Source of the DNA: Candidatus Parcubacteria bacterium
GTDB lineage: Bacteria > Patescibacteriota > Saccharimonadia > UBA4664 > JBIOIQ01
Reading direction: 5' to 3'
Assembly (NCBI GenBank): GCA_963718875.1
Contig: OY970378.1
Location: 132,396 to 196,395 of the forward strand
Length of the DNA: 64,000 bases
The notes under the pieces are model-generated. The model had not been told where the DNA came from, searched no databases, and was given only the letters and a program-made list of their open reading frames with translations. Both the position numbers and the translations under genes were made by a program. Shown in pieces: positions 7,141 to 49,602 of the stretch. How positions within the stretch are numbered: the first letter of the stretch is position 1; the number at the start of each line of letters is the position of its first letter.

Positions 7141-7270
7141 CAACAGATTTAAAATAGCCATTATGTTTTAAAACGCTCAAAGCGTTTTTTTAGTGTGAAA
7201 ACATAAGCGTTATGCAAACTGGCTAAATTATAATCATTGAGTTTTGTAAGTTTTGTTTGTTGACCTGATC
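7141..7270 (+). repeat. direct repeat copy 2 (partner of 6655-6790)
   Basis: See copy 1. Together they bracket an about 350-bp segment containing a K-type REP (6829-6857) and an 18-bp inverted repeat (6861-6879 / 6977-6995). Confidence 0.6.
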
Positions 7271-7544
7271 TAAGGTTTCAACCAGCATTTTTTGTAACTT
7301 CAAGACCTGGTCTTGACTAACGCGTTTAAAACTTGGGTCAGGCCTCAGGCCCGCCCGCGGGGGTCGTGGACCCCTACGGACGGACACTGAGGGTTTCTCA
7401 CCGAGCGCAGTAGAGCCACGTTCGGCAAGATTGGAGCCCGCAGGCCCTGGTTCGGAAGATGGGGGTTCCTTGCCTGGGCCTGCGGGGGAATTGCCGGTCG
7501 AGTCACGCATAGTGTGTACCCGCCGGCAAGATGGTTGCGCCGGA

Positions 7545-7949
7545 CTAGGCGGGGTTGGAGATGATGCTGAAGCGTAGCTTGACCTTTCGGTCGCCAGCCA
7601 CGGCTTCAACCTCCCACAACAGGCTCCGCGGACGGCTCTCGCCATCTCCGTGGATCAAGAGAGAGTTGAAGAAGCTTTCGCAAAGGCTGCCGACCGAGAA
7701 GTCGGCGGTCAGAAGTGCTTCGCCGATGGAGTCGCCGACGAATCGGAGGGCTTCGCCGAGAGAGCCGCAGGCTTGACGCTGACGCCACACCCCATTGACC
7801 GTATCGTCCGCGAAAACCATGGCTCCGGTTACGCCTTGGTAGGCATCAACGAGCCATGCCCACTCTGTGTCGGTGAGCTCTTGGTACTTCAGCAGCTCGC
7901 TGATTTTCGGCGTGACTACTTTGATGGGCTTTACTGCGACAGCTACCAT
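7545..7949 (-). CDS. hypothetical protein (GC-rich islet)
   Basis: 134-aa ORF with AAGGAGG RBS 5 nt upstream of ATG. Non-repetitive composition, unlike the overlapping alternative-frame ORFs. Confidence 0.5.
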   Translation of the reverse strand: MVAVAVKPIKVVTPKISELLKYQELTDTEWAWLVDAYQGVTGAMVFADDTVNGVWRQRQACGSLGEALRFVGDSIGEALLTADFSVGSLCESFFNSLLIHGDGESRPRSLLWEVEAVAGDRKVKLRFSIISNPA

Positions 7950-8219
7950 TGCATGTGCCTCCTTGAAGGCCTATCGTCCGATGGATTCGGGCGGGGCTTG
8001 CGACTCACATTGCTTGTGAAGCACAAAACCCGACCGAATTTGAATCTGGTGAATCCTAGCCCGATATTTAAAGAGCAATCAACCTAAGATTGAATGTCTA
8101 ACATATTAGCATAAGTGGCATGGAAAGTCAATGGCTGCATCTGGGATATTAAGGATTTGAGATTAGTAGATGGTAGGCAGGGTTCTGAAGCGATCCTCCT
8201 ATCTACTACCTACCAGTCC

Positions 8220-23051: not shown

Positions 23052-23089
23052 ATTCGGGCCGGTCTTTTGGTGCATTACTGCGTTGAGGC

Positions 23090-25086: not shown

Positions 25087-25105
25087 CACAACGATTTGAT
25101 TGCTG

Positions 25106-25154
25106 CCCGCGTGGAGCCTCCCTTTAAACGGTGGCTCCACGCGGGAGTTTTTTT
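25106..25154 (+). terminator. rho-independent terminator (13-bp stem CCCGCGTGGAGCC plus T9)
   Basis: CCCGCGTGGAGCC...GGCTCCACGCGGG followed by AGTTTTTTT. Confidence 0.8.
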
Positions 25155-25175
25155 AAAGAGGATTTAACCCGAGGG

Positions 25176-25204
25176 TTGACACTCGAACCTAGTAGGCATA
25201 ATAT
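25176..25204 (+). promoter_or_regulatory. strong sigma-70 promoter (TTGACA-17-TAATAT)
   Basis: Consensus -35, 17-nt spacer, near-consensus -10. No ORF with RBS follows. Confidence 0.6.
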
Positions 25205-25210
25205 CAAAAT

Positions 25211-25820
25211 ATCAGTTTTGCTTATGCTAAGCTGCGAGGTTAGAAAGTTTTTTAGCCGTTATTAACAGACAAGAGAGCAATTGTGTGGGCGGGTTATGAG
25301 CTTTAGAGAGCAGCTAAGGTTTATAACCCGTCCACAAGAAACATCGGACGCGGTAGCGGCAGGTCTTCTGCCGCCTCGATCGCCTCCAATACCGGCAGCC
25401 GGAGCCAACTTCTCGTCCAGCGTTGTGCGAGAAGTTGGCGTTCGGTTTCCCTAGGAGGCGCCAGTTCCGACCAATAGCGGCGGAGAAAGAAGGAGGAGCG
25501 CTGACACAGATCAGCTCTGCAGCAACGTTACTCCTGGTTGCGGCGCTGTGCCGTAGCCTGGGGAGCCTACAGCTCGCAGATACCCTCCCGGTCGGCTCAC
25601 AAGCTCACTTCGCTATCGATCACCGGCGTCGGAGGTCATGGCGACGAGTCAGACTCCGCACTGGAGTCCCGTCGAGCGACAAGGGTGGGTAATCGCCATC
25701 AACAGCGGTGGCCCGCAGCGCCTGAGCGGGCCGTTAGTCTGCCCCCTCAACGCTCGCGGGCCACCGCACTAGTTCTCTCGAACTCTGTTTCGCCCCCTTT
25801 ATGGGGGCGCTTTGTTTTTA
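25211..25820 (+). ncRNA. candidate ~600-nt structured ncRNA (promoter to terminator, GC-rich, many nested hairpins)
   Basis: Begins after the promoter at 25176. Contains long hairpins (TGTGGGCGGGTTAT...ATAACCCGTCCACA, CCAACTTCTCG...CGAGAAGTTGG and others). Ends at hairpin GCCCCCTTT-ATGGGGGC plus T-run (25792-25820). Only RBS-less high-GC ORFs overlap. Confidence 0.35.
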
Positions 25821-25841
25821 TTGGGTACGAAAGCAAAAAGG

Positions 25842-25871
25842 TTGACAAGAATGTTGGGCATCATTTAATAT
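25842..25871 (+). promoter_or_regulatory. sigma-70-like promoter (TTGACA-17-TTAATA)
   Basis: Directly after the previous terminator, upstream of the 25978 ORF. Confidence 0.45.
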
Positions 25872-25977
25872 CAGTGCATCGGTTATTAGTTGTTATGCTA
25901 ATACTGTGAGGCGTGGTTAAGAGCAATTTTGGCCAGCCAAATATTGACAAAGCAATAAGAGCAAAAACACCTGGATT

Positions 25978-26262
25978 GTGGAAGGGCTCAAGTTTTCATT
26001 TATTGAAGATTTTAGCTCTTCCGCAATGCCCGGCGGGAGCGGTTTCGGTCGCATTTCGATCGGATCAGCTACTAGGGCGGTCACGTCAACCATCAGAAAC
26101 GAGGACAGCGTGTTCAAGCGAGTCACCCACAACGAGCCGGCCTTCGAGTTCGACCCCGTGGCGACCTTCTTCGACCCCCACGGCGGCGCCGGCGGGATCA
26201 ACAGGGCCATGGCCGGGATGGCCAACAGCGCGACCAACGCCTTCACCGCGCACTCGGGCTAG
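25978..26262 (+). CDS. small Gly/Ala/Ser-rich hypothetical protein (94 aa, GTG start)
   Basis: ORF followed by long hairpin GGCCAGTGTGCCGCCG...CGGCGGCACACTGGCC. Weak RBS, so model uncertain. Confidence 0.3.
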   Translation: MEGLKFSFIEDFSSSAMPGGSGFGRISIGSATRAVTSTIRNEDSVFKRVTHNEPAFEFDPVATFFDPHGGAGGINRAMAGMANSATNAFTAHSG

Positions 26263-26669
26263 CAGCCCCCGGCCAGTGTGCCGCCGCCGACGAGAATACG
26301 GCGGCACACTGGCCTTGAGATCTCAAGATCGCCTGGACGGGCGGCGCCTGAACCGGCTCCGTAGGCGAGAACGGAGCCGGTTCACGGCTTGCCACTCGCT
26401 GCAAAGTGTCGACGTCAACCAAGGAGGTCTATCGGGTAGCGATACCTGACTCCGTTTCAACACCCACCGTCATCTATCGAAGGGAACGCCTCGTGCGGGA
26501 TCCGCCCTAGAAGATGGACCTCGATGGAAGCACCTCGCCGAGGTCGCAGTTACTACAACCTGCTTTGCCGTGAAGGTGAATGCCATGGGGCAGGGAACGT
26601 CCGCGCGAGCAGTGCCACCAGGCCCTCGCGCGGACGTTCTTCACAGCTCTTATTGCCGAGTCCATCGCG

Positions 26670-26698
26670 GACCTCCTTCGGGAGGTTCTTTTCTTTTT
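26670..26698 (+). terminator. rho-independent terminator (GACCTCC-TTCG-GGAGGTT plus T-run)
   Basis: Closes the GC-rich islet just before the REP element and the pgi-like gene. Confidence 0.5.
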
Positions 26699-26767
26699 AT
26701 ATGGGGCCTAATGCCGAATGCAAGTTTGGCGCTGGGATCACTAACTGGTAGCATTCCGGCTTAGTTT

Positions 26768-26798
26768 AAGAGATCCTGAAACAAGTTCAGGATGACAC
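26768..26798 (+). repeat. REP/RPE-like element (family 1, minimal form AAGAGATCCTGAAAC-AAG-TTCAGGATGACA)
   Basis: Perfect 8-bp hairpin flanked by AGATCC and GGATGACA terminal motifs. Confidence 0.65.
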
Positions 26799-26842
26799 TT
26801 AAAATTTATGAGATAATAAACTTTAAGAAACGGAGCTTTTTT

Positions 26843-27457
26843 ATGTCAGACCCCAACTTTGCATACGTCCCTAAGCATCTGGCCACGCGAACCCACGAAG
26901 ACATGAAAGCGGTTTTAATGAGCCCTGACGCGCAAGGTCCAGCCGTACATTATTACATGATTAGAGGTGGGAGCCAGCAGCGTAATGTAACGGTGTGGGA
27001 GCCGGGTAAGGTAGGGGGTGAATATATCAAAACCTTTGGTCATTACCATGTTGGGCCCTTGGATGAAACTTATGAGATTTTGGAGGGTCAGGGGTTTGTA
27101 CTGCAGGAAAGATTGGAGGTTAACGAGGCGGGAGAAATGGTTGCAGATAGGGTAGCCGAGTTTAAAGTCATTCCCATCAAAGCTGGCGACAGCGTGTTTA
27201 TCCCGGCTGGTTCAGGTCATTTAGCTGTTAATACGGGTGATACCTACATGGTAACGACCGACGACAGCCCGGTTAATTTTGATGATTCTGACCCAAGTGG
27301 ACATCCAGGTCATGCTGATTACTCTCTGGTGAGGCAGACGCGAGGATTTGCCTACTATGTGGTGGAGCGTGATGGCGCGCCTGCCTTAGTAAAGAATCCT
27401 CATTACAGTGTTATTGCAAATGAAGACCTTGGCGGCTTATCGGTGGTAGAAGCTTGA
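26843..27457 (+). CDS. cupin-type glucose-6-phosphate isomerase (cPGI-like)
   Basis: Internal Met with GGAG RBS. TFGHYHVG and YMIRGGSQ cupin/PGI motifs. Low-GC backbone composition. Confidence 0.65.
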   Translation: MSDPNFAYVPKHLATRTHEDMKAVLMSPDAQGPAVHYYMIRGGSQQRNVTVWEPGKVGGEYIKTFGHYHVGPLDETYEILEGQGFVLQERLEVNEAGEMVADRVAEFKVIPIKAGDSVFIPAGSGHLAVNTGDTYMVTTDDSPVNFDDSDPSGHPGHADYSLVRQTRGFAYYVVERDGAPALVKNPHYSVIANEDLGGLSVVEA

Positions 27458-28659
27458 GCGGGGGAGCAGAGGATTCGACTCAGTTTAAGCGCCCATATTT
27501 AGTAATACCCAAACTGATTGAGCAACCTACTTGGGGTGGTACTTATATTGCGGAATTCAAGCAATGGGATATAAAACCGTCTTTAGCGGGTTCAAAAATA
27601 GGCCAGTCGTACGAGTTATTTTCTGGGAGTAACCTATCTTTATTGGATTCAAGTAAAGACCCCTTGTTTGAGGGCGAAATTACCGATCGTGATGAGGTGC
27701 AAAACCCTACTAGTCCCGAGAATTCGGTTAGTTTGGCAAGCTTGATCGAGATGTCGGCCAAAGACACTTTGGGGAGCGCTCGAGCAGTGCGCAGCGGCCG
27801 CAAGTTTGATTTGTTGATTAAGTTTACACAGTCATTAGGCAACTCTTTTCAAATTCACATCAAAGATGGGTTGGAAGACCCATGGTGGAAGCCAAAGCCC
27901 GAGTCGTGGTATTACCTGGAGCCCGGGCTGATAACTTTAGGAGTTAAATCGGGGGTTGATTGGGGGGATTATGAGGCGGCAGTGTCGTCTGTGGCCGAAG
28001 CTATGACTGGCTTGGAGCGCCAAATTTCTACTGGAGAGCTAGACTACGACGAGGCGCAAGCTGAAGTTCATAGTTTGCTGGAGCGCTACGATCCTTGGGT
28101 ATATGTTAATACAGTCGAGGTTAAAAAAGATCAGTTGGTGGATCTTTCGGCAGGAGCTCTGCACCATTCTTGGGAAGAAGATTCGGTAAAAATCCCTTTA
28201 GGGAATGTCTTGTATGAATTGCAACTTGAGGCTATGGATGATGTCTCGACTATAAGGGTGTTTGATAAAGGCAAGATGACCAGAGGTGGGTCGCTGCGTA
28301 AGCTTAATATTTCCGATTATTTTCGGCTGATCGATCGAACTCCAGAGGCTAATGATCCTAAGAACCATATGGGGGAACCGACGGATCTAATTAAAACGGC
28401 GGAGTATGGACTATCTAGGTTACTTAGTACCAAATATTACACTTTGAATAAACTATTGCTTTTAACTCCGACGGCCTCTTATAACGAACGGATTGACCAG
28501 TTCCGACATTTGTTTGTGCGCAAAGGCGAAATCCAAGTTTCAACTGAATTGGGGAGTGTCATTGTAAGCCAGGGGCACGCCTGTTTTATCCCAGCTGGAG
28601 CAATGGAATATAGAGTTGAGTGCAAACGCCCAGCTACTGAAGTGCTAATAAGTTACTAG
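27454..28659 (+). CDS. cupin-fold sugar isomerase, type I mannose-6-phosphate isomerase-like (tentative)
   Basis: PTWGGTYI N-terminal motif resembling class I PMI. 401 aa. 4-nt overlap with the upstream pgi-like gene. Confidence 0.45.
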   Translation: MSGGAEDSTQFKRPYLVIPKLIEQPTWGGTYIAEFKQWDIKPSLAGSKIGQSYELFSGSNLSLLDSSKDPLFEGEITDRDEVQNPTSPENSVSLASLIEMSAKDTLGSARAVRSGRKFDLLIKFTQSLGNSFQIHIKDGLEDPWWKPKPESWYYLEPGLITLGVKSGVDWGDYEAAVSSVAEAMTGLERQISTGELDYDEAQAEVHSLLERYDPWVYVNTVEVKKDQLVDLSAGALHHSWEEDSVKIPLGNVLYELQLEAMDDVSTIRVFDKGKMTRGGSLRKLNISDYFRLIDRTPEANDPKNHMGEPTDLIKTAEYGLSRLLSTKYYTLNKLLLLTPTASYNERIDQFRHLFVRKGEIQVSTELGSVIVSQGHACFIPAGAMEYRVECKRPATEVLISY

Positions 28660-28715
28660 TAAAAACTTTTTATATCATTACGACTTTAAGTTTTTAAGTT
28701 TACCGTGAATCTTAC

Positions 28716-28903
28716 AAACCTCCCATCATTGTCATTACCTATCCCCGGATCGTGGTCCGGGGCAGGCTCCAGCCAAACTCCACTATTGCCTAGTTTGGTG
28801 CTCCGGATAGGGAATCTAGCCGAGATCCTCCGATCATCCGTCGATTGACGGACGGAGGATGACAAAAAATTTAAGGGGTTTCAAGATTCACAAATAAGTT
28901 CAT
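28716..28903. repeat. MITE-like composite: 15-bp terminal inverted repeats (GTGAATCTTACAAACC / GGTTTCAAGATTCAC) enclosing REP-like hairpins
   Basis: TIRs match at 14 of 16 positions. The interior contains CCCCGGATCGTGGTCCGGGG and the family-1 copy GAGATCC...GGAGGATGACAA (28822-28865). Confidence 0.45.
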
Positions 28904-29103
28904 ACTCGCCGTAGGACTTTTTTGTTCTATACCAAAGTACAAAAAGTTTTTAAGGATTATAATTTATGGTGCCGACGCTTAAGAGATAGATTGATAGTCG
29001 CTCTTAATGCGTTTGGTGTTCCCGCCGGCGGGGAGGAGCGATTTCTCGCTCCTCCCCGCTTGGCGGCTTAGTTTTGTTAACCGTAAACTAAACGTGTGAA
29101 GAG

Positions 29104-29703
29104 TTACTTGGGCTTTTCGGTGAAGTTGAAAGTGGCTTGTTGAACCACCACTCGCTTATCGGCTGGGTAGGAGTTGATGATCCCGATGGTGGAATCGACG
29201 TAGCCTTCCCAGTACTTGGCGAACTTCTTGCCGTTGTTGTCCAAGCAAAGCGTCCAGGTACCCGATGATTGCCCGATGTACACGCCGGTGGGCTCACCCT
29301 GATCGATGCTGAACAGCTCGCGGCTGTTGTCATCGGGGAGATCCACCCACTGCGTTGAACCAGACAGTTGATAGCTGCTGGGGACTGGTGCTCCTGCGGA
29401 GGGGCACCACCAGATGAGGCCAATGCCTTCGAGGTACCCCGCGGTGGTGCTGGTGGCACCGGTGGCGCGGATGGTTTCGACGTCAATGACTGTCTGCCTC
29501 TCCTGGCTCCAGTCGAAGGTAGGAACTTGCTGGCTGTTACTCAGCCGGTTGAAGCCGGTTTGCACAGCCTTCTGCTCCTCCTTGGCGGTTTTGCCGCCTT
29601 TCTCGGATTCCTCGCTGTTGTTGCTGCATGTGCCAGCAAATGTTCCGAAGAACACCACTAGCACGAATGCAATTATGCTGAACTGCTTGCGGTTCATGAG
29701 CAT
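29104..29703 (-). CDS. lipoprotein (hypothetical)
   Basis: Signal peptide with lipobox FAGTC. 199 aa. GC about 55%. Confidence 0.55.
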   Translation of the reverse strand: MLMNRKQFSIIAFVLVVFFGTFAGTCSNNSEESEKGGKTAKEEQKAVQTGFNRLSNSQQVPTFDWSQERQTVIDVETIRATGATSTTAGYLEGIGLIWWCPSAGAPVPSSYQLSGSTQWVDLPDDNSRELFSIDQGEPTGVYIGQSSGTWTLCLDNNGKKFAKYWEGYVDSTIGIINSYPADKRVVVQQATFNFTEKPK

Positions 29704-30017
29704 TCCTTAGTTTCGAAGCGGACAATGATGGTGTCGCGGTAGGGCGGCGTCAGCCGGGCGATGAGTTCGCACGTCTGGTCGCGTAACGCGCTACGGGCTG
29801 CGGTGTTGGCGGGGTCAACCAGCTCGTAGTCCTTGATGTTCTGGACAGCTTGGTCACGCCACGCGGTCTGCGTGCCCTTGTTGCGGTTGTCGATGTTGAC
29901 CTGGCGGTCAACATTCTTCTCGGTTACAAACCACCCAAATTGCCAGGCGGCGATGCCGAGAATAGCCATCATGACAAAAGCCACGATGGCTACCAAAATG
30001 CCTTTTGCGGTTTCCAT
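29694..30017 (-). CDS. small membrane-anchored hypothetical protein
   Basis: 107 aa with N-terminal TM helix. 10-nt overlap with the downstream lipoprotein gene indicates an operon. Confidence 0.5.
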   Translation of the reverse strand: METAKGILVAIVAFVMMAILGIAAWQFGWFVTEKNVDRQVNIDNRNKGTQTAWRDQAVQNIKDYELVDPANTAARSALRDQTCELIARLTPPYRDTIIVRFETKECS

Positions 30018-30408
30018 TTTTACCTTTCTGGAAGTAACTCTTCAAGTTGTGAAGGGACATACGCGGGGACGGCCCGCGTGGCCGCGAGTGGCTTTTTAGG
30101 GCCTCTCGTCGCCGGGGTGAATTCAAGTTCCCCGGCGATAAGAGGTGATAAGTGCAGGTCATCAACGCCTCCGATTTTTACGGATTGGCGGATTTTCGAG
30201 TATAAAAAAACCAGGGTCATTGTTGGGCTTTAGGCTAAGCACCAGACTCTGGGGAAACGTTTTCGATACCGATAGCTATTTAACTGATGAAACCATTATA
30301 GGACACCATTTTTGATTTGTCAATAGGTAAATCTCGTAATTATAGTTGACTAAGTGAGCCGGAATATATATAGTGTGGCGGCTGTTTCCAACTATCAGGA
30401 GGACAGAA

Positions 30409-31092
30409 GTGCGTGGTATTCGAAAGCTGCCGCTTGCTGCTGCACTACTTGCGGTCGTATTGGTCGCATCGGCTTGCCCAGGTGGAGAGAGCTCCCCGCC
30501 AACCCCAGCGGAACAAGCTCTCGCGAGCCTGACAAACGATCTTGCCGGCGGCTCTTTGACAAAGCAGCATACCCTTGCGGGCGAGAAGTTCAGGTTCATC
30601 ACGAGGTACGACACGACGTACAACGCCAAGTCGTGGCGTATTACCGACTCAAAGACAATTCATTTCCAGGCCGGGATCGAATTGTTGCCTGGTGGCGAAG
30701 GTGTGCTGGTGATGATCGAGCATGTCCATGTGGACGTCAACCTGCAAGGCGATAAGGCAGGGCTCGATGGAATGCCGCAGGATTCAATGGATGACAGCAT
30801 CCATGGCGGCGATCAGCCAGGGTTTCTTGTGACGCCTCAATACATGTACGAGGAAGTGTTTGTGATCGAGGGGCTTTCCCAAACCTTGATCAACGGCTGG
30901 GGTTTTGCCACTGGTGGTACGGGCAGCTCGGACATAAGCGAGGAACGATTGACCGAGAAGCATCTGAGGAAGAACGGAGTGAAGGGTAACAAATTCAGCT
31001 TCGTCTACGATGTGCTTGTCAGGTACCCAGGGGAGCCGGGCTTCCACAAACGCATCGTTGTCGACGAGTTCCTGATTCAAACGGCCGCATAG
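30409..31092 (+). CDS. lipoprotein (hypothetical)
   Basis: GTG start with AGGAGG RBS. Signal plus lipobox VASAC. Two candidate TTGNNN-17/18-TATAGT promoters at 30316-30365. Confidence 0.55.
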   Translation: MRGIRKLPLAAALLAVVLVASACPGGESSPPTPAEQALASLTNDLAGGSLTKQHTLAGEKFRFITRYDTTYNAKSWRITDSKTIHFQAGIELLPGGEGVLVMIEHVHVDVNLQGDKAGLDGMPQDSMDDSIHGGDQPGFLVTPQYMYEEVFVIEGLSQTLINGWGFATGGTGSSDISEERLTEKHLRKNGVKGNKFSFVYDVLVRYPGEPGFHKRIVVDEFLIQTAA

Positions 31093-31214
31093 AAAGTTCT
31101 GCTCGCTGGTGAGGTTGGGGACGAAAATCTCCCAACCTCACCCCCTACAAGTTATAAACTCAATGTTTTATGCCAAACAGAGTTTAAGTAGTACAATGGT
31201 ACGAGCTCAAGCAG

Positions 31215-31305
<91 letters not shown>

Positions 31306-32674: not shown

Positions 32675-32765
32675 CAAGTAAAGGGAGCCTCCCTTTTAGT
32701 GGTTATGTTAGCATTTCGAGCTCATTTCTTAAGTTAGGGAGCCTCCCTCGAATTTGTTATGCTCC
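32675..32765. repeat. paired palindromic motif element (2x GGGAGCCTCCC), second locus
   Basis: Same arrangement as 2845-2940. Marks the left boundary of the GC-rich cassette array. Confidence 0.55.
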
Positions 32766-32789
32766 GACCCAAGGCTTCAAACTCCACGT

Positions 32790-32873
32790 TGTCACCCTGA
32801 ACCGTCGGCTGACGGTTGTTTCAGGATCTCTTAATCTGGACAAGAGATCCCGGATCGTGGTCCGGGATGACAA
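32790..32873. repeat. inverted pair of family-1 REP/RPE-like elements
   Basis: Reverse copy GTCACCCTGAAC...TCAGGATCTCTT, then forward copy AGAGATCCCGGATCGTGGTCCGGGATGACAA. Confidence 0.6.
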
Positions 32874-32937
32874 GAAGAAGGTTGAAAACTTAGGTCGGGC
32901 CCCGCACCAGCCTTGGTAGACTTGGTGCGGGACGGGG

Positions 32938-33384
32938 TTAGGACGGGTCGGATTCGGGTGCCGGAGGGCGCTTGGCGAGCTCGATTTCGAGCTCGGCGAC
33001 ACATCTTTCGTGGTCTTTAACAACCTCCATGAGTAGCTCAGCTTTTTCCTGATAACGCTGGGCCTCGGCCGCGATGCGCATGTAAAGCGTTTCGATGGTG
33101 CAGTCTTTGGGGAACTGGTCGAACCCTGCGTCAAGGAGTGCGATGAAAGCATCGATAGCCTTTTTGGCTGCTTTGTACTCATGCTTGTAAAACCAACCGG
33201 GCCAGTCGGGATCGGCCTCGCAGTAGGGAACCATGAACTCCTGGAGCAGCTGAGCGTAGGGTCGAATGACGCTCCATGGCTCATTCCACGGATTGTAGAA
33301 CTGGGTGATCCTCTCCAGTGTCCACATTCCGTCTCTGATTCTTTTGAGGACGTCTCGCAGTGCCTGGGTGGGGTGAATGGTCAT
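32938..33384 (-). CDS. cassette-array paralog A1 (hypothetical, C-terminal coiled coil and Pro-rich tail)
   Basis: 148 aa, N-terminal MTIHPTQALRDVL. Shares N-terminal and C-terminal (ELEIELAKRPP...DPS) features with 33395-33811, 35444-35989 and 36119-36628. Confidence 0.6.
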   Translation of the reverse strand: MTIHPTQALRDVLKRIRDGMWTLERITQFYNPWNEPWSVIRPYAQLLQEFMVPYCEADPDWPGWFYKHEYKAAKKAIDAFIALLDAGFDQFPKDCTIETLYMRIAAEAQRYQEKAELLMEVVKDHERCVAELEIELAKRPPAPESDPS

Positions 33385-33394
33385 GGGATCTGTT

Positions 33395-33811
33395 TCAGTT
33401 GGAGTGCGAAGGGGGCGAGGAAGGACGCTTTTTGAGCTCGGTTTCGAGTCCTTTGATGCGGGCGTCCAGTTCTTTAACCTGTGACGCGAGGGACTCAGAC
33501 CAGTTTTTGTAACGGATCCTTTCGCCGGCGATTCTCATGTAGAGATCACCGATGGTAGTACCACTTGGGAGCCGATCGAATCCGGCATCTATTAACTCGA
33601 TGAAGGCGTCAAGTGCCTGTGTGAAAGTGGGCGAGTAAGGAAGTTCATGGTGCTCGCCAAGGAAAGCTTTGATGAGCTCCTGGTAGGGTGAAAACACGCT
33701 GTCGGTTGCCATGCCACCGCCTTGCATTACTGCGGCATATGCGCTACGAGAGTTTGCGTCTCTGGCTGCGACGAGCGCGTCGCGAAGTGCTTGGGTTGGG
33801 GTTAGCGTCAC
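33395..33811 (-). CDS. cassette-array paralog A2
   Basis: 138 aa, MTLTPTQALRDAL... Shares DAFIELIDAGFD...LYMRIAGE block with A1. GTG start with AAAGGAT RBS. Confidence 0.6.
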   Translation of the reverse strand: MTLTPTQALRDALVAARDANSRSAYAAVMQGGGMATDSVFSPYQELIKAFLGEHHELPYSPTFTQALDAFIELIDAGFDRLPSGTTIGDLYMRIAGERIRYKNWSESLASQVKELDARIKGLETELKKRPSSPPSHSN

Positions 33812-33978
33812 GGGTTATCTATCCTTTGGGTTGTGGATCGTGTACACGGGTTGCATCGTTGCTTCCCGACCTAAGGTTTCAAAGCTCTTTTTAAGACCTG
33901 ATCTTCGATAGTTGAAAGCTTGGGTCGGGGTTCCGCCGTGCGCTGGTTAGGGCGCAGGCAGCGGAACCTGTGGATGGG

Positions 33979-34383
33979 CTATACCGGGTGGATCTTGTGC
34001 ATACTGCACTTGAAGATGTCGATCATGGGGAACTCGGCCTGAGGGTGTTCCGCCTCGAGGTAAACTACGCCGGCCAGGTCGGAAGTCAGGTTGAGGCCGG
34101 TGGAGCTGGTAATGAAGTCACTTACCAAGTCGATGGCCATGCTGTCGTCCTGGTCCAGCTCGTACTTGCTGACGCCGAACTTGGCGGCGATCTTGCCGTG
34201 GTCGAGCTCGAACTGCTCGGTGTTGGTGTCGCGGTCGTAGTCGTTGCGAGAGCAGAGCCAGGCGCTGCGGACTCGGACGATGGCTTTGACTTGGACGCCT
34301 TGCTCTTCTCTGAGCTCGCGCTTGACGAGCGTGAGCTGCTTGGCACTGACCTTGCCGATCACCACTAGCGTGGTGGCTGCCAT
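33979..34383 (-). CDS. cassette-array gene B (hypothetical, 134 aa)
   Basis: Own conserved leader with AAAGGAAGA RBS. Flanked by the TTAGGTCGGG/CCCGACCTAAG inverted-repeat boundary elements. Confidence 0.5.
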   Translation of the reverse strand: MAATTLVVIGKVSAKQLTLVKRELREEQGVQVKAIVRVRSAWLCSRNDYDRDTNTEQFELDHGKIAAKFGVSKYELDQDDSMAIDLVSDFITSSTGLNLTSDLAGVVYLEAEHPQAEFPMIDIFKCSMHKIHPV

Positions 34384-34548
34384 GATGTTCTTCCTTTGAT
34401 CGTCGGTACACGGGTAAGCACTGTTGCTTCCCGACCCAAGACTTCAATCTTATTTACACGGGTGGAACCGATGTAGGATTTGAAAACTTAGGTCGGGGTT
34501 CCGCCGCTGTAGCCGGAGCTACAAACGGCGGAACCTGGGAATGGGTGG

Positions 34549-35226
34549 TTAGCTGGATACGCCTTCGGGTGCTGATCCCTCAACGGGTGCATCCTCGAAG
34601 GGATATGCCAAGACTCGAGCGACTTCACTCTCCAAGGTCTCGGTGCTGAAGCCCACCAGGGCACGGTCTAGGGCTTGGCTACGAAGCTTGACCTCAAGTG
34701 CCTTGAGGCGCTCCGGGATCCCGCTGCTTTGCCAGTCCCGGTAGAGGTGTTGAGCGCAGAGCATCTCCATATGGTAGTGGCTTGCAACTGCCGAGCGGAA
34801 GCCATCGGTGCCTACAGGGCTGTTGGGGTAGTTGCCGAAAATGGCGATGATGAGCTCACCGTCCTCGCCGAAGACGGCGAGAGAGAACTCGTCATCGATG
34901 TCGTAGCCAGCACCGTGACGGAATGGGAAGCCGAAGCTGTCACGACCAGGATCCGGCTGCTTGATCTCGTAGTGGAACACGATACCCATCTCGATGCGTA
35001 GCAGCTCGCCGCCCTTGTTTCGAAGGTGGCGGGTGACCACTTTGCCGCTGACAATGAAATCGAGCGTGTTGCCGAGCTTGACGAGCTCATAGGTGGTGCC
35101 ATTGATGTCGGCTGAGTAAATATCCCTCAACACTTCCTCAATGAGGTGGTGCTCAGGGCTGTGGTGGTGAATCGATCGGTAGCCAACTGCTTGGGGGTGA
35201 GCGTGGGCGGGTCGGGTGTAGGCCAT
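34549..35226 (-). CDS. cassette-array gene C (hypothetical, 225 aa)
   Basis: Conserved leader ...CCGAAAAAGGATGG-N7-ATG. Same boundary elements. Confidence 0.5.
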   Translation of the reverse strand: MAYTRPAHAHPQAVGYRSIHHHSPEHHLIEEVLRDIYSADINGTTYELVKLGNTLDFIVSGKVVTRHLRNKGGELLRIEMGIVFHYEIKQPDPGRDSFGFPFRHGAGYDIDDEFSLAVFGEDGELIIAIFGNYPNSPVGTDGFRSAVASHYHMEMLCAQHLYRDWQSSGIPERLKALEVKLRSQALDRALVGFSTETLESEVARVLAYPFEDAPVEGSAPEGVSS

Positions 35227-35349
35227 TGAAAACCATCCTTTTTCGGTTGTCGATCGGGTACACGGGTAAGCACTATTGCTTCCCGACCTAAGACTTCAAA
35301 ACTCTTTGTTGTCACCTTGTACTTGATTCAGGGTCTCTTAATCTGGACA

Positions 35350-35380
35350 AGAGATCCCGGATCGTGGTCCGGGATGACAA
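35350..35380 (+). repeat. family-1 REP/RPE-like element (AGAGATCCCGGATCGTGGTCCGGGATGACAA)
   Basis: Identical to 32843-32873. Preceded by a degenerate reverse copy. Confidence 0.6.
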
Positions 35381-35443
35381 TTTAGGGTTGAAAACTTAGG
35401 TCGGGCCCCGCATCAGCCTTGGAAGACTTGATGCGGGACGGGG

Positions 35444-35989
35444 TTAGGACGGGTTCGGCTTGGATACCGGAGGACGGGTGGCGAGTTCGGCTTCGAGCTC
35501 GGCGATGCGGGCGTTGAGGTCGTCGTTCTGCTGGCAAACCTTGCGGTGCTCGCGAGCGAGGTTGTCGAGTTGGCTGTACCGCTCTTGGAGTGAGATGACA
35601 AGGGAGTCGTGGTCTAGACGTACTGTCGCGAGCTTGGCCTCGAGCTTGGCGACGGTCTCCCTCGTGATGGCGAGCCAGTACTCTGCCTTGAAACGGTATC
35701 CTGCAGCCCACATCAGCCTGTTGTCGATGGGGTTGGTAGGGGAAAGCTCGTCGGCTCCTGAGTTTACCAACCAGATGATGCTGTTGATGGCCGCGATGTT
35801 GCGAGCTTGGGTTCCCGCGAAGTCTACCTGGGCAGCATCGATGAAGGTACGGAAGTGGCCACTGACTGTGCTGAAGATGCTGTGGTTACCCGGGTTGCCA
35901 ATTATCTGCTCAATGTTGGACTCTTGGGGGTCGGAGTCCCTGAGCGCCTTGAGGGCGTCGATGAGGGCCTGGGTAGGGTTGATTGCCAT
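35444..35989 (-). CDS. cassette-array paralog A3
   Basis: Start at internal Met (MAINPTQALIDALKALRD) with AAAAAGGACGG RBS. C-terminus ARIAELEAELATRPPVSKPNPS. Confidence 0.6.
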   Translation of the reverse strand: MAINPTQALIDALKALRDSDPQESNIEQIIGNPGNHSIFSTVSGHFRTFIDAAQVDFAGTQARNIAAINSIIWLVNSGADELSPTNPIDNRLMWAAGYRFKAEYWLAITRETVAKLEAKLATVRLDHDSLVISLQERYSQLDNLAREHRKVCQQNDDLNARIAELEAELATRPPVSKPNPS

Positions 35990-36118
35990 GGTGGCCGTCC
36001 TTTTTGGGTTGTCGGGTACACGGGTAAGCACTGTTGCTTCCCGACCTAGGGCTTCAAACGAGGTTGAAAACTTAGGTCGGGCCCCGCACCAGCTGGGTAG
36101 GCAAGGTGCGGGACGGGG

Positions 36119-36628
36119 TTAGGACGGGTCGGGTTCGGGTGAGTAAGGCTCCTGCAGAGCTGCGACTTTGGCTTCGAGTTCGGCGACGAGGAGCTTCATT
36201 TGATGACCCTCATGCCTGAGAACCTGGTTCTCGTTGCGCTCTTCCCTCAGGTGGTCTAGGTTCTCGCGGATGACCTGTCGGGCTTGGTAGAGCTCGCCGC
36301 CAACCTTCATAGCGAAGTCAGCAACCTGAGAGCCGTCAGGGAGTACCGTCAAGCCGGCCCAGATGAGCTCGAACAGGTGGTTGATGACAGCCTTGCACTG
36401 CGTGTACAGGATGTCCCTCCTGGTTTGCGAGTTCATGCCCTCGAGGTTATCCAGGATCCCACATGCCTTCCTGAACGGCAGGATGAGTTGAGCGACCTCG
36501 TAGAACATGTGGTAGGGGTCGGTGGTGGTAAGGAGCTGAACTGCTTCGGCGACGTCCAGGGTGCCGGTGTTGGCGCCAATGCGCATTTCTTCCAGCTTGG
36601 CCATCAGAGTTACGGTGGGGTTGAGCAT
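36119..36628 (-). CDS. cassette-array paralog A4 (promoter-proximal)
   Basis: 169 aa. C-terminus LVAELEAKVAALQEPYSPEPDPS. AAAGGACGAATACC-ATG leader. Confidence 0.6.
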   Translation of the reverse strand: MLNPTVTLMAKLEEMRIGANTGTLDVAEAVQLLTTTDPYHMFYEVAQLILPFRKACGILDNLEGMNSQTRRDILYTQCKAVINHLFELIWAGLTVLPDGSQVADFAMKVGGELYQARQVIRENLDHLREERNENQVLRHEGHQMKLLVAELEAKVAALQEPYSPEPDPS

Positions 36629-36699
36629 GGTATTCGTCCTTTGGGTTGTGTAGGTGCGAATGTGTCTGATTGGGCTGTTCCCAACTCAGTGCGGACAAG

Positions 36700-36790
36700 T
36701 CTATACTATTTATGCTTAAATGTCAATATAATGTAGGTAAAATGTAATATCTACAGATAGATATTTGTCAAAATGAGAATTGACAAATAC
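36700..36790 (-). promoter_or_regulatory. AT-rich promoter region of the cassette array (TTGACA boxes on minus strand)
   Basis: Reverse complement contains TTGACAAATATCTATCTGTAGATATTACAT and TTGACATTTAAGCATAAATAGTATAGAC. It is the only AT-rich stretch in the array. Confidence 0.35.
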
Positions 36791-36928
36791 AATTTAGCCA
36801 AGTAATCTATGGTTAGCCTCTCTTTCGTCGAACTATAGGAGGCACGGCGCTTTTATCGTTCGAGGTAATCCGAGAGACTCACTGAGGCCTTCGACTACGT
36901 TCAGGCAATGAGCCAGAGAATTTGGTTA

Positions 36929-37064: not shown

Positions 37065-37844
37065 ATGACAGAAGAACAGCTTCAACAACTAGGATTATCA
37101 CCTACACAAGCTAAGGCGTACCTTTTACTAGTGCTGACGGGTAAGCTGACGCCGGCGGATTTGATGGCTAAGACGGGGGATAGCCGAACCAATGCTTACA
37201 TGGTGCTGGACAGATTAGTTGAGCTGGGGCTGGCGATTAAAGATGAGGTGGGCAAAAAGCTGATTTATCGCTCAAACAGCCCCGTTGGACTGGCCAAGAT
37301 TGCGGAGCGTCAAAGGGAGAAGGCCACCCAAACGGAAGGCAAGATTCGCGATGCCATGCCTGAGCTGGTTAAGTTTTACCATTCTCACCGAACTCAACCC
37401 GGAGTGCGGTTTTTACAAGGGAAAGAGGGGCTACAACAGGTTTATAAAGACCATCTTAAGACCGGTGGAGACGAGGTAATTTTTAGAACTAAGGCGGATA
37501 ACGAGTATTATGGTCAAGGGTTACTGACGTACATGGAGGAGCGGGCAGCAAAGGGAATTAAGACCGATATGATTTCACCCTGGCAGAGGGATATGGTTAA
37601 GTATGCTCCGGTGGAAAACGTGCGGTTAAAACGTGATGTGACTTTTGTACCGCCTGAGGCCTACGATGTGCCTGTGGAGATTGCGGTATATGGTACTAGG
37701 GTTGCGATTACCTCCTTTGGTGAGGAGGCGATTGCAACGATTATTGACAGCCCCCAGGTGGCGGATGCGGTAAGACAAGTATTTGCCATGGCTAAGGCAG
37801 GGGCGGATAAGCTTTGGGTTGAGGCCGGCGGCTTGCCCGAGTAA
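37065..37844 (+). CDS. TrmB-family transcriptional regulator
   Basis: N-terminal winged HTH (LGLSPTQAKAYLLLVLTGKLTPADLMAKTGDSRTNAYMVLDRLVELGL) plus C-terminal TrmB-like domain. Paralog at 53755. Confidence 0.7.
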   Translation: MTEEQLQQLGLSPTQAKAYLLLVLTGKLTPADLMAKTGDSRTNAYMVLDRLVELGLAIKDEVGKKLIYRSNSPVGLAKIAERQREKATQTEGKIRDAMPELVKFYHSHRTQPGVRFLQGKEGLQQVYKDHLKTGGDEVIFRTKADNEYYGQGLLTYMEERAAKGIKTDMISPWQRDMVKYAPVENVRLKRDVTFVPPEAYDVPVEIAVYGTRVAITSFGEEAIATIIDSPQVADAVRQVFAMAKAGADKLWVEAGGLPE

Positions 37845-44035: not shown

Positions 44036-44377
44036 TTATGGAGCTAAAGTTCGCTCCTGTGTCGGTTGGCCAGTTTGGCGGGTCGTTAGCGCATCGATGG
44101 CGAAGCTGATGAACGGCTTGGCCGCCGCATAGCCTTCGACATGGGCATCGATCACTTCCATTAGGTCTTGGAAGGTTGGAGCGGTCAATCTTCTGAGTAG
44201 GTTGAAAATGGCATTGATCGGATACAGAACGCTTTCCCCCGTACTGCTCATGTTCGAGATTGTTGCCCACAGTTTGCCGGCTTCTTGGGTTACCGTAGTG
44301 TCACTGGACGTGTCGGGATCCAAGTTGAGCCGTCCCAGGATGGCATGGACAACCGCAGTAGTGTCGGATGTGCTCAC
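44036..44377 (-). CDS. hypothetical protein (GC-rich, IS-adjacent)
   Basis: GTG start with AAGAGG RBS. 113 aa. Confidence 0.45.
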   Translation of the reverse strand: MSTSDTTAVVHAILGRLNLDPDTSSDTTVTQEAGKLWATISNMSSTGESVLYPINAIFNLLRRLTAPTFQDLMEVIDAHVEGYAAAKPFISFAIDALTTRQTGQPTQERTLAP

Positions 44378-44578
44378 CGTTACCTCTTTTCAGTCGAATG
44401 GGTTTTGCTATTATGCCTGAACTGGAGGTGGTTGGCAAACTCTCGGTTCGTCGAGGCTGCCTAACTGAGAGTTGGCGCAAAAAAAGATGTGCGTTTTAAT
44501 CGGAGGGCGTAAAGAAGAAAGCACCCCGGGCCGCTCTGGTGGGAGCGACGCCGGGGTGCGAGACGGGGAGGATGAGGG

Positions 44579-45121
44579 CTAGTCCCTCGGGTTGATGGTG
44601 AGGGTGCCGGTGAATGTCTGGGTGTTGTAGAGGACCCGGACGGGGCTTCCGTCCATGACGAGGTTGCCGGTCAAGATCCAGCTGTTGTTGATTCCCGACT
44701 CCCGATCAACGTGGTTAACGAGCACGGTGACGGTGCGGGACTGCTTCGTGGTGAAGACGATGTTTTGTCCACCGAAGAAGCGGTTCCCGAGATCGTCACG
44801 GATGGGGCTGCGTCCCGGGATGATGTCGAGCTGGCGGGTGGCAGCAGCATTGATGGTGAGCCTTCCATCCCTAGTGTGGGTGTGGTAGTAGCCCGAGAAC
44901 GGAACTTGGGCTCTGGCGGTCACCCCTGCGATGTTCCAGCAGAAGGGGTTTTTGGTGTGCGTGAGGGAGTTCACATACACATTGACTTTACGCCCGGATT
45001 CAGTGATGAAGGTGACCATCTTCCGTGCGTAGGTGCGCTGGAATAGCTCAAGGCCGTCGGGGTTGTCGGAGCCGTCTATCTTGATTTCGTGGCGGGTTGT
45101 TGTAGGTGCGGCAGCGGACAT
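44579..45121 (-). CDS. hypothetical beta-rich protein (GC-rich, IS-adjacent)
   Basis: AGGAGC RBS. 180 aa. Confidence 0.5.
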   Translation of the reverse strand: MSAAAPTTTRHEIKIDGSDNPDGLELFQRTYARKMVTFITESGRKVNVYVNSLTHTKNPFCWNIAGVTARAQVPFSGYYHTHTRDGRLTINAAATRQLDIIPGRSPIRDDLGNRFFGGQNIVFTTKQSRTVTVLVNHVDRESGINNSWILTGNLVMDGSPVRVLYNTQTFTGTLTINPRD

Positions 45122-45149
45122 GAGTGCCTCACGTTCAGCTCCTGAGATA

Positions 45150-49600: not shown

Positions 49601-49602
49601 AT

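What the first reader, a model, noticed from the sequence alone, without database searches (positions are those of the whole stretch)
32766..36800. Tandem array of six gene cassettes, each bounded by the same inverted repeat, leader and terminator
Six minus-strand genes (A4, A3, C, B, A2, A1) follow one AT-rich promoter region. Five of them share a conserved 5' leader: ...GTACACGGGTAAGCACTGTTGCTTCCCGACCTAAG...ACAACCCAAAAAGGAYGG-N6-ATG with a hairpin. Only the promoter-proximal A4 has a different upstream sequence, and it lacks the CCCGACCTAAG boundary repeat. Each is followed by a conserved hairpin terminator (CCCGCACCAG...TTGGTGCGGG then GACCTAAGTTTTCAAC). As a result every cassette is flanked by the inverted repeat TTAGGTCGGG...CCCGACCTAAG. 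The four A genes are diverged paralogs. They share an N-terminal M-T/A-I-x-P-T-Q-A-L-R/I-D-A-L and a C-terminal coiled coil ending in a Pro/Ser-rich tail (RPPAPESDPS and similar), with variable middles. B and C are unrelated proteins using the same cassette framing. The array is GC-rich (about 60%) and bounded by REP elements and the GGGAGCCTCCC boundary motif. This could be a modular, recombination-prone variable-effector or immunity cassette system.
Basis: seen in the sequence. Interest (0 to 1): 0.8.

Follow-up and report, generated by a model that had tools for sequence, protein, structure and literature searches.

The report
Orphan-gene operon punctuated by repeated three-hairpin modules
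A GC-rich, probably foreign operon of six genes with no known relatives sits in a small bacterial genome, and its genes are separated by copies of one three-hairpin spacer; this spacer most likely punctuates the messenger RNA and lets gene cassettes recombine, and it is not a classical integron.

Summary
The repeats are real and far above chance. The details differ from the finding: six minus-strand genes form five cassettes, because A2 and A1 are 10 nt apart with nothing between them. There are four conserved leaders, not five. There are five 3' modules with two different first hairpins. Each intergenic module is three abutting hairpins: H1 is a variable GC stem just after the stop codon; H2 is the 18-bp inverted repeat CCCGACCTAAGTTTTCAA/TTGAAGNCTTAGGTCGG with a 6 to 101 nt loop; H3 is the leader hairpin. 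Only one promoter-like site, upstream of A4, faces the array. The array is compositionally foreign (GC3 0.58-0.85 against 0.43-0.53 for host genes). It ends at the last base of the final H2 arm. All six proteins are orphans. Relatives occur only on two tiny metagenome contigs. One of these lacks the 134-aa cassette. In the other, the non-coding module is 93% identical but the gene only 77%. No integrase was found among the ORFs of 150 aa or more that were scanned, no AAC/GTT core, and no bulged bases, so it is not a canonical integron. Best reading: RNA punctuation modules that also act as recombination substrates, like PeSL cassettes of T4-type phages. Protein functions are unknown.

The parts
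36698..36726 (-). Only sigma-70-like promoter facing the array (TTGACA-17-TAGACT). It lies in an AT-rich divergent control region that also holds palindromes and a plus-strand promoter-like site pointing towards the TrmB gene.
   Evidence: sequence
37065..37844 (+). Divergently transcribed TrmB-family HTH regulator; candidate regulator of the array (inference).
   Evidence: Pfam PF01978, E 4.9e-11. The same neighbour is present in the JGI relative.
36119..36628 (-). A4, 169 aa, the most divergent A paralog. Its leader has a different hairpin (TTGGGAACAGCCCAA) but shares CACAACCCAAAGGA with the other leaders.
35990..36118 (-). Module 1. H1 at about 36082-36114. H2 arms at 36064-36081 and 36040-36057 with a 6-nt loop. 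H3 at 36022-36042, followed by GTGTAC..ACAACCCAAAAAGGA and the ATG.
   Evidence: fold z-score -3.2
35444..35989 (-). A3, 181 aa, A paralog with a longer coiled coil.
35227..35443 (-). Module 2. H1 (CCCGCATC/GATGCGGG) has one compensatory pair change relative to module 1. H2 arms at 35388-35405 and 35282-35299. The loop holds a host-type MITE, of which the 58-nt block 35323-35380 is shared with module 5. H3 at 35264-35284.
34549..35226 (-). C, 225 aa orphan. Its only relative is the JGI protein P0007 (69% identity).
34384..34548 (-). Module 3. H1 is of the second type (GGTTCCGCCG/CGGCGGAACC). H2 arms at 34480-34497 and 34430-34447. The loop contains a leader-like fragment, ACCCGTGTAA. H3 at 34412-34432.
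   Evidence: fold z-score -8.3
33979..34383 (-). B, 134 aa orphan. Its only relative is the ENA protein P0008 (67% identity). It is absent from the JGI relative's array.
33812..33978 (-). Module 4. H1 is of the second type. H2 arms at 33912-33929 and 33865-33882. H3 carries a 1-nt deletion.
   Evidence: fold z-score -4.6
32938..33811 (-). Bicistronic cassette A2 (33811-33395, GTG start) plus A1 (33384-32938), 10 nt apart with no module between them. The same pair is 5 nt apart in the JGI relative.
32763..32937 (-). Terminal module 5. H1 matches module 1. H2 arms at 32882-32899 and 32763-32780. The loop holds the MITE (about 32789-32873). There is no H3: the array ends at ...GGTCGG.
32683..32747 (.). 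Host doublet element (two GGGAGCCTCCC motifs 54 nt apart) that abuts the last base of the array. A second copy at 2854-2919 shows it is host sequence and so marks the insertion boundary.
7264..8030 (-). Second locus, a single cassette: GC-rich orphan ORF 7949-7545 (134 aa), a 3' GC hairpin at about 7345-7395, diverged H2 arms at 7325-7342 and 7264-7281, and an upstream GGTCGGG plus hairpin.

Best explanation
**What it is.** This is a horizontally acquired, GC-rich operon in a small-genome bacterium (the contig is 1.19 Mb). It holds five promoterless cassettes encoding six fast-evolving orphan proteins. A single promoter next to a divergent TrmB-type regulator gene most likely drives all of them.

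**The module.** Cassettes are joined by one repeated module that folds on the transcript into three abutting hairpins.
- H1 sits 2-15 nt after the stop codon. It would act as a 3' stabiliser or a leaky U-less attenuator.
- H2 is an 18-bp stem with a conserved 1x1 mismatch. It tolerates any loop from 6 to 101 nt. It is a plausible double-strand RNase processing site, of the RNase III kind.
- H3 and the conserved ribosome-binding box form the 5' leader of the next gene.

**Role at the DNA level.** The same 100-200 bp direct repeats serve as substrates for ordinary homologous recombination and gene conversion. This homogenises cassette ends and deletes, adds or moves whole cassettes.

**Shown:** the anatomy, the folding potential, the foreign composition, stronger conservation of the module than of the gene, conversion tracts, and one cassette-level difference between strains.

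**Inferred:** transcription as one unit, RNA processing, the recombination mechanism, and regulation by TrmB.

**Unknown:** what the six proteins do.
For: - **Repeats are non-random**.
- **One module architecture in all junctions**.
- **Stems are kept through paired changes.** H1 shows CCCGCACC/GGTGCGGG against CCCGCATC/GATGCGGG. H2 at locus 2 shows C-G changed to T-A.
- **No internal promoters and no canonical terminators**.
- **Foreign composition.** GC3 is 0.58-0.85 in the array and 0.43-0.53 in host genes.
- **Comparison with the ENA contig.** The coding region is 77% identical with dN/dS 0.63 and no indels. The H1 plus H2 left arm region is about 93% identical.
- **Comparison with the JGI relative.** TrmB is 91% identical. 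Array proteins are 69-75% identical. The 134-aa cassette is missing.
- **Conversion tracts.** A tract of about 75-100% identity runs across the A4, A3 and A1 3' ends and their modules. A2 has no module and is not homogenised in this way.
- **Shared host MITE.** Two modules carry the same MITE at 97% identity.
- **Sharp end.** The array stops at the outer end of the last H2 arm, against a host repeat.
- **Documented precedent.** PeSL cassettes of T4-type phages are a known case of regulatory repeats that shuffle orphan genes.
Against: - No transcript data are available. Processing and co-transcription are therefore inferred.
- G-U pairs do not favour the transcribed strand over its complement (8 against 7). 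The H2 stem could equally be a DNA-level signal.
- Homologous recombination alone does not explain how unrelated ORFs first acquired identical framing.
- It also does not explain why a single diverged cassette sits at a second locus.
- Only two short contigs were available for comparison, and the DNA of one could not be read.
Confidence: 0.5

Rival explanations
1. This is an integron-like, site-specific cassette-capture platform. H2 would be an attC-like folded recombination site, and an unidentified recombinase encoded elsewhere in the genome would insert and excise promoterless cassettes downstream of one promoter.
For: - The cassettes are promoterless and co-oriented behind a single promoter.
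- H2 is an imperfect stem of about 18 bp with a central mismatch and a highly variable loop of 6 to 101 nt. This resembles the variable terminal structure of attC.
- The first cassette lacks the site upstream, and the last cassette ends with a complete site that abuts host DNA.
- Unrelated ORFs share the same framing.
- A single cassette with a related site sits at a second locus.
- One cassette is present in this genome and absent in a relative.
Against: - None of the ORFs of 150 aa or more that were scanned in the 64-kb window has a recombinase domain.
- The conserved AAC/GTT triplet is replaced by GAC/GTC.
- The arms are equal in length, so there are no extrahelical bases.
- A 55-nt conserved leader lies beyond the putative crossover point. 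Integron cassettes do not have this.
- The gradual conversion tracts are the signature of homologous exchange, not site-specific exchange.
- The site was not found in the species-representative genomes, the viral contigs, or the plasmid and phage records, nor the right-arm/leader junction in the metagenome contigs.
Confidence: 0.12
2. This is a relic of tandem duplication with no present function. An ancestral A cassette, with its flanks, was duplicated several times. Gene conversion keeps the flanks alike, and the hairpins are only the original terminator and leader.
For: - Four of the six genes are paralogs.
- A2 and A1 are a tandem pair.
- The conversion tracts are evident.
Against: - C and B are unrelated to A and to each other, yet carry the same H2, H3 and leader.
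- C and B share a second H1 type.
- The module is more conserved between strains than the B coding sequence (93% against 77%).
- The stems are kept through paired changes, and a diverged copy exists at locus 2.
Confidence: 0.2
3. H2 is a small mobile element, a MITE with 18-bp terminal inverted repeats, that inserted secondarily into the spacers of an ordinary operon, much as Correia or REP/BIME elements do.
For: - H2 has terminal inverted repeats with a variable interior, and its shortest form is 42 bp.
- The host genome does carry other MITE families.
Against: - No target-site duplication is visible.
- H2 always abuts H1 and H3 at the same nucleotide.
- In 64 kb the copies occur only next to GC-rich orphan cassettes.
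- None was found in the public collections searched.
- The composition of H2 matches the island, not the host.
Confidence: 0.1
4. The array is a set of invertible on/off cassettes. A recombinase would flip each gene between the inverted arms that flank it, giving phase variation.
For: The arms on either side of each gene are inverted copies of each other, 80-95% complementary.
Against: - No invertase lies nearby.
- All genes have the same orientation on the JGI contig.
Confidence: 0.03

Closest known systems
PeSL (promoter-early stem-loop) mobile regulatory cassettes of T4-type phages (Arbiol et al. 2010, PMC2839356; Comeau et al. 2014, PMC4122927)
   Same: - Short composite regulatory repeats containing stem-loops frame unrelated orphan genes in a hyperplastic region.
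- Homologous recombination between the repeats produces insertions, deletions and replacements of whole genes between close relatives.
   Different: - PeSLs contain a strong sigma-70 promoter and an effective terminator. Here there is no promoter in the module and no U-tract terminator.
- This locus is on a bacterial chromosome, not in a phage.
- This module has three hairpins, including a long inverted repeat.
- Mini-circles were not tested here.
Integron gene-cassette arrays with attC sites, including integrase-less attC clusters (CALINs)
   Same: - Promoterless, co-oriented cassettes lie behind one promoter.
- Each cassette ends in an imperfect folded repeat with a variable loop.
- The last cassette ends with a complete site.
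- The cargo consists of small orphan ORFs.
   Different: - No IntI was found in the window.
- The core is GAC/GTC in place of the conserved AAC/GTT.
- There are no extrahelical bases.
- Each cassette carries a conserved long leader and an extra H1 hairpin.
- The exchange tracts look homologous rather than site-specific.
RNase III processing hairpins between the early genes of phage T7 (from my own knowledge, not tested here)
   Same: Homologous hairpins with an internal loop recur between co-transcribed genes. Cleavage leaves a 3' stem on the upstream message and a defined 5' leader on the downstream message.
   Different: No cleavage data exist for this locus, and there is no sequence similarity. 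T7 sites are not known to mediate cassette exchange.
REP/BIME and Correia-type intergenic repeats
   Same: These are inverted-repeat elements located in transcribed spacers. They stabilise or process mRNA and act as recombination hot spots.
   Different: - Those families are dispersed in tens to hundreds of copies across a genome and are independent of the neighbouring gene.
- Here the repeat is confined to two GC-rich islands in 64 kb and is fused in register to a 3' hairpin and a 5' leader.
pdif modules of Acinetobacter plasmids (from my own knowledge)
   Same: Discrete gene modules are bounded by inverted pairs of short recombination sites and arranged in arrays.
   Different: - pdif sites are 28 bp with a fixed 6-bp centre and are bound by XerC/XerD.
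- Here the spacing between arms varies from 6 to 101 nt, and the arms do not resemble dif.

Membership tests
Integron / attC cassette array | A tyrosine recombinase IntI next to the array. (A CALIN lacks one nearby, but one is expected somewhere in the genome or lineage.) | tested here: not met
   Pfam scans of most window ORFs of 150 aa or more found no integrase or recombinase domain. The only related hit is an HTH_38 domain at 45208-45900. Four host-region ORFs of that size (TsaD 8220-9401, 58226-61033, 62055-62927, 63058-63984) and smaller ORFs were not scanned. The rest of the 1.19-Mb genome was not available.
Integron / attC cassette array | Conserved 5'-AAC-3'/5'-GTT-3' triplets within RYYYAAC and GTTRRRY at the outer ends of the site (PMC5027507). 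| tested here: not met
   The outer ends read [G/C]CCCGAC and GTCGGGA in all five array copies.
Integron / attC cassette array | Extrahelical (bulged) bases on one arm and an unpaired central spacer, which together give strand selectivity. | tested here: not met
   The arms are of equal length. There is only a symmetric 1x1 mismatch at position 12 and an adjacent G-T pair. G-T counts are 8 on one strand and 7 on the other.
Integron / attC cassette array | A variable terminal structure (loop) of very different lengths among sites. | tested here: met
   Loops are 6, 29, 32, 88 and 101 nt.
Integron / attC cassette array | A match to the IntegronFinder attC covariance model. | not testable with these tools
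   The model is not in Rfam. Rfam gave no match at all, even at E up to 1.
PeSL-type regulatory cassettes | A composite of an early sigma-70 promoter and a terminator stem-loop. | tested here: not met
   There is no promoter-like site on the minus strand in any spacer, and no stem followed by a T-run.
PeSL-type regulatory cassettes | Repeats frame orphan genes, and gene-level indels between close relatives map to the repeats. | tested here: inconclusive
   The framing was shown. One cassette is absent in the JGI relative according to the gene table only. The junction DNA could not be read.
Intrinsic (Rho-independent) terminators | A GC-rich stem immediately followed by a U-tract. | tested here: not met
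   None of the five H1 hairpins was called. The TTTT run lies 11 nt downstream, inside the H2 left arm.
Known protein families (effector, immunity, defence, phage) | Significant sequence or fold similarity of A, B or C to a described family. | tested here: not met

The most novel reading that the evidence does not exclude
The three-hairpin module is the recombination site of an undescribed cassette-capture system that does not use a classical integron integrase. It would operate in a reduced-genome, possibly episymbiotic bacterium. It would stockpile foreign GC-rich orphan genes behind one regulated promoter and also seed single cassettes at other loci, such as 7264-8030. The same element would double as RNA punctuation.
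Probability: 0.12. Interest if true: 0.8.

Novelty: new variant of a known kind. Interest (0 to 1): 0.5.

Why it matters
- If the modules both punctuate the transcript and shuffle cassettes, this would be a chromosomal counterpart of phage PeSL regions. It would show how a very small genome can hold and turn over a pool of fast-evolving foreign orphan genes without an integron integrase.
- The six proteins have no relatives among about 5.8 billion protein clusters apart from two tiny contigs. They evolve about three times faster than the neighbouring regulator. Such genes are candidates for host-interaction or conflict functions.
- The locus is directly testable with long reads and end-mapping RNA-seq.
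- If the modules turn out to be only stabilising hairpins, the locus is just an unusual operon.

Tried and rejected
**Searches for the element elsewhere**
- Metagenome scan for the junction pattern TTGAARYCYTRGGTCGGGAAGCAA: 0 hits.
- Protein-guided metagenome scan: 600 pattern matches, none confirmed. An earlier attempt failed for lack of conserved columns. The JGI contig DNA therefore stayed unreadable.
- Species-representative genome scan for CCCGACCYAAGYTTTCAAC: 3 single hits with no partner arm, so these are chance matches. The source genome is not in that collection.
- Viral contigs: one exact pattern gave 0 hits. Two shorter patterns gave only single chance hits, and profile screening of all 241 fetched loci rejected them. 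A protein scan found nothing.
- blastn against phage and plasmid records: no match.
- Rfam at gathering threshold and at E up to 1: nothing in the array.

**Searches on the proteins**
- The deep HMM search with the A profile returned two long tandem-repeat proteins and one coiled-coil protein. I judged these compositional artefacts.
- AlphaFold2 gave a mediocre model for A1 (pLDDT 67) and a useless one for C (pLDDT 35). The afdb50 fold library was unavailable. Weak top Foldseek hits to winged-helix regulators (E 0.25 or worse) are not significant and are not used.

**Tests on the repeat**
- Does an arm pair better with its in-module partner or with the arm across the gene? No discrimination.
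- Do G-U pairs show strand asymmetry? No.
- Do other GC-rich islets, such as 22900-31200, carry an analogous repeated framing? None was found.

**Literature**
- Searches for integrons or attC sites in Saccharibacteria or Patescibacteria found nothing relevant.

Full report
**Naming.** A4 is 36628-36119 (169 aa). A3 is 35989-35444 (181 aa). C is 35226-34549 (225 aa). B is 34383-33979 (134 aa). A2 is 33811-33395 (138 aa, GTG start). A1 is 33384-32938 (148 aa).

Yes, with corrections.
- The 18-nt boundary repeat CCCGACCTAAGTTTTCAA occurs 11 times in the window at up to 3 mismatches. Chance expectation is 0.06.
- The 27-nt leader hairpin box matches three times at up to 3 mismatches, against 0 expected. 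A fourth copy has a 1-nt deletion.
- The region is 55-60% GC in a 48.9% GC window.
- A sigma-70-like site, TTGACA-17-TAGACT, at 36726..36698 is the only promoter-like match facing the array between 36800 and 32700. None of the post-gene hairpins qualifies as an intrinsic terminator.

The aligned spacers give the following corrections.
- Only four genes (A3, C, B, A2) carry the leader.
- A1 begins 10 nt after the A2 stop with nothing between them, so there are five cassettes.
- The CCCGCACC/GGTGCGGG hairpin follows A4, A3 and A1. C and B carry a different stem, GGTTCCGCCG/CGGCGGAACC.
- A4's own leader still ends in CACAACCCAAAGGA.

**2. Anatomy of the module**

Read on the transcribed strand, each spacer has five parts.
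- H1 is a GC-rich hairpin starting 2-15 nt after the stop codon.
- The left arm of the inverted repeat follows.
- A loop of 6, 88, 32, 29 or 101 nt comes next.
- The right arm, TTGAAGNCTTAGGTCGG(G), follows the loop.
- H3 (GGGAAGCA-ACAG-TGCTTaCCC) comes last, followed by GTGTAC, ACAACCCAAAAAGGA and the start codon.

The two arms sit in the same spacer and pair with each other to form H2. H2 is an 18-bp stem with a conserved 1x1 mismatch at position 12, usually with a G-T pair next to it.

Stems are kept through paired changes.
- H1 of A3 differs from H1 of A4 and A1 by a C-G to T-A swap.
- The diverged H2 at the second locus has a C-G to T-A swap.

G-T counts do not separate the two strands (8 against 7). 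The stem could therefore matter as RNA or as DNA.

**3. Boundaries and origin**
- The array genes have GC3 of 0.58-0.85. Nine host genes in the window have 0.43-0.53.
- The last module has H1 and a complete H2 but no H3. It ends ...GGTCGG and immediately meets a host element made of two GGGAGCCTCCC motifs. That element has a second copy at 2854-2919.
- At the other end, GC content drops at about 36690, just downstream of the promoter.
- The island is therefore a discrete insert. Its 3' edge is the outer end of an H2 arm.
- Two H2 loops (after A3 and after A1) contain a MITE-like insert. Its terminal motif, TTGTCATCC, recurs at about eight sites in the window. The ENA relative has a similar insert at the same position.

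**4. A second locus**

A diverged H2 (arms 7325-7342 and 7264-7281) lies 3' of another GC-rich orphan ORF (7949-7545, 134 aa, GC3 0.72). This ORF sits between the ValRS and TsaD genes. It has its own 3' GC hairpin and an upstream GGTCGGG followed by a small hairpin.

Profile searches found no further copies in the window. Other GC-rich orphan islets in the window lack this framing.

**5. The proteins**
- The four A proteins are paralogs. They share the N-terminal motif M-T-[IL]-x-P-T-Q-A-L-R-D-x-L, a helical body, a C-terminal coiled coil and a Pro/Ser tail.
- C and B are unrelated to A and to each other.
- Pfam, PHROGs, PADLOC and NCBIfam gave only coiled-coil noise.
- In about 5.8 billion protein clusters, the A profile found only the window's own proteins plus two proteins on one 2419-bp JGI contig. 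C found one JGI protein. B found one ENA protein.
- A full HMMER pass over 1.84 billion representatives added only compositional artefacts.
- PDB sequence searches were negative.
- Function is therefore unknown.
- The ORFs look real. B and its ENA homolog differ at 23% of nucleotides with no indel or stop codon, and dN/dS is 0.63.

**6. Comparative evidence**

Three observations bear on mechanism.

(a) *The non-coding module is better conserved than the gene.* In the ENA contig, the B coding sequence is 77% identical to the window. The 60 nt covering H1 and the H2 left arm are about 93% identical.

(b) *A related strain lacks one cassette.* JGI sample 3300071358 holds a relative with the same synteny: MsrB, then TrmB, then a divergent gene cut at 141 aa. 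A second contig reads [gene cut at 137 aa]-[226 aa, C]-[139 aa, A2]-[148 aa, A1].
- No 134-aa B lies between C and A2. The spacer there is 230 nt.
- TrmB is 91% identical between the two strains.
- C is 69% identical, A2 69% and A1 75%.
- The array therefore evolves much faster than its neighbour and differs by a whole cassette.
- I could not read that contig's DNA, so the junction is not resolved.

(c) *Conversion tracts within the window.* The 3' ends of A4, A3 and A1 are about 75-100% identical. The tract runs from about 70 nt inside the coding region, through H1 and the left arm, through the shared MITE for A3 and A1, to the right arm. The gene bodies are 25-50% identical, which is essentially unalignable.
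- A2 has no module, and its 3' end is only 53-59% identical to the others.
- Because the A3 and A1 modules share a MITE-like insert at 97% identity, this exchange probably happened in this host lineage.

**7. Best explanation (confidence about 0.5)**

The island is one transcription unit, probably controlled from the divergent TrmB promoter region. The repeated module would act on the RNA.
- H1 would be a 3' protective or leaky attenuating hairpin. U-less hairpins of this kind are common in high-GC actinobacteria (my own knowledge).
- H2 would be a double-stranded processing site.
- H3 and the ribosome-binding box would be a protected 5' leader.

At the DNA level, the 100-200 bp direct repeats undergo homologous recombination and gene conversion. 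This homogenises cassette ends and removes or adds cassettes.

The anatomy, folding potential, composition, conservation pattern, conversion tracts and one cassette difference are shown. Co-transcription, processing and the recombination mechanism are inferred.

**8. Rival explanations**
- *Integron-like capture platform (0.12).* It fits the promoterless co-oriented cassettes, the variable loop, the complete terminal site, the unrelated cargo and the second locus. It fails three defining attC features (for the definitions): GAC/GTC replaces AAC/GTT; there are no bulged bases; no recombinase is present among the ORFs of 150 aa or more that were scanned. It also does not predict a 55-nt conserved leader or graded conversion tracts.
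- *Duplication relic with no function (0.2).* It does not explain why C and B share the framing. It also does not explain why the module is more conserved than the gene.
- *H2 as a MITE (0.1).* It lacks target duplications and dispersal. It also does not explain the exact register of H2 with H1 and H3.
- *Invertible cassettes (0.03).* There is no invertase nearby and no inverted copy.

**9. Comparison with known systems**
- The closest in behaviour are the PeSL regulatory cassettes of T4-type phages. These frame orphan genes and mediate their shuffling by homologous recombination. PeSLs carry a promoter and a true terminator, which this module lacks.
- The closest in layout are integron arrays. 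Membership is rejected on the tested features.
- T7-type RNase III sites, REP/BIME and Correia elements, and pdif modules each share one aspect only.
- I rate the locus as a new variant of a known kind: a repeated intergenic regulatory and recombinogenic cassette.

**10. Limits**
- The element was not found in species-representative genomes, viral contigs, plasmids or phages, and its right-arm/leader junction was not found in metagenome contigs. It is therefore rare, and the comparative base is thin.
- The host was not identified. A 1.19-Mb contig, FemAB, Mur ligase and a pilin-like gene suggest a reduced-genome, possibly Patescibacteria-like bacterium. This is an inference only.

**11. Verdict**

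This is a real, unusual and well-delimited structure. 'Effector or immunity' and 'terminator' are not supported. Interest is 0.5.

The most novel reading still open is a non-integron cassette-capture system. I give it a probability of 0.12 and an interest of 0.8 if true.

Noticed in passing
window 7264-8030: A single GC-rich orphan cassette (ORF 7949-7545, 134 aa) lies between the ValRS and TsaD genes. It carries a diverged copy of the same inverted repeat downstream and a GGTCGGG plus hairpin upstream. In that hairpin the pairing partner of GTGCTT lies downstream, not upstream as in the array.
   Followed up: partly
window 7251-8000, 23001-26750, 29001-31000, 44251-45250, 49501-51250, 54501-57500, 61251-62000: Many short GC-rich islets (54-63% GC) are interspersed among about 47% GC housekeeping genes. 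Their ORFs have no Pfam family. The genome looks mosaic with foreign or fast-evolving orphan DNA.
   Followed up: partly
window 2854-2919 and 32683-32747: A host repeat made of two GGGAGCCTCCC palindromes 54-55 nt apart occurs twice in the window. One copy abuts the 3' end of the array.
   Followed up: partly
window 6587, 9182, 26786, 32789, 32861, 35368, 36975, 60806: A MITE-like family has ends TTGTCATCCYGRA (8 matches against 0.3 expected). Copies sit inside two H2 loops, in the TrmB-array control region, and in the H2 loop of the ENA relative L004.
   Followed up: partly
window 34449-34479 (loop of H2 in module 3): The loop contains GGTTCC followed by ACCCGTGTAA. These are fragments resembling the start of the second H1 type and the leader box. 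They may be a scar of an earlier recombination or a collapsed module (D18, 42).
   Followed up: no
window 270-1538 and 31215-31304: All four tRNA genes in the window are tRNA-Ser (anticodons cga, gct, tga, gga). Three are clustered, and the fourth lies 1.4 kb from the array next to another GC-rich islet.
   Followed up: no
window 18873-20301: Phosphoglucomutase domains I and II-III are split over two overlapping ORFs (18873-19373 and 19342-20301). This could be a frameshift, a pseudogene or a sequencing error.
   Followed up: no
window 53755-54513 and 45208-45900: A second TrmB-family regulator lies next to another GC-rich orphan islet. A 230-aa ORF has only the HTH_38 domain typical of IS30 transposase N-termini.
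   Followed up: no
window 33325-33384: The public annotation appears to start A1 at an internal Met (P0015, 129 aa). The JGI ortholog conserves the upstream MTIHPTQALRDVL, so the longer 148-aa ORF is the likely true gene. The exact sequences of B and the 148-aa A1 are absent from the protein collection.
   Followed up: partly
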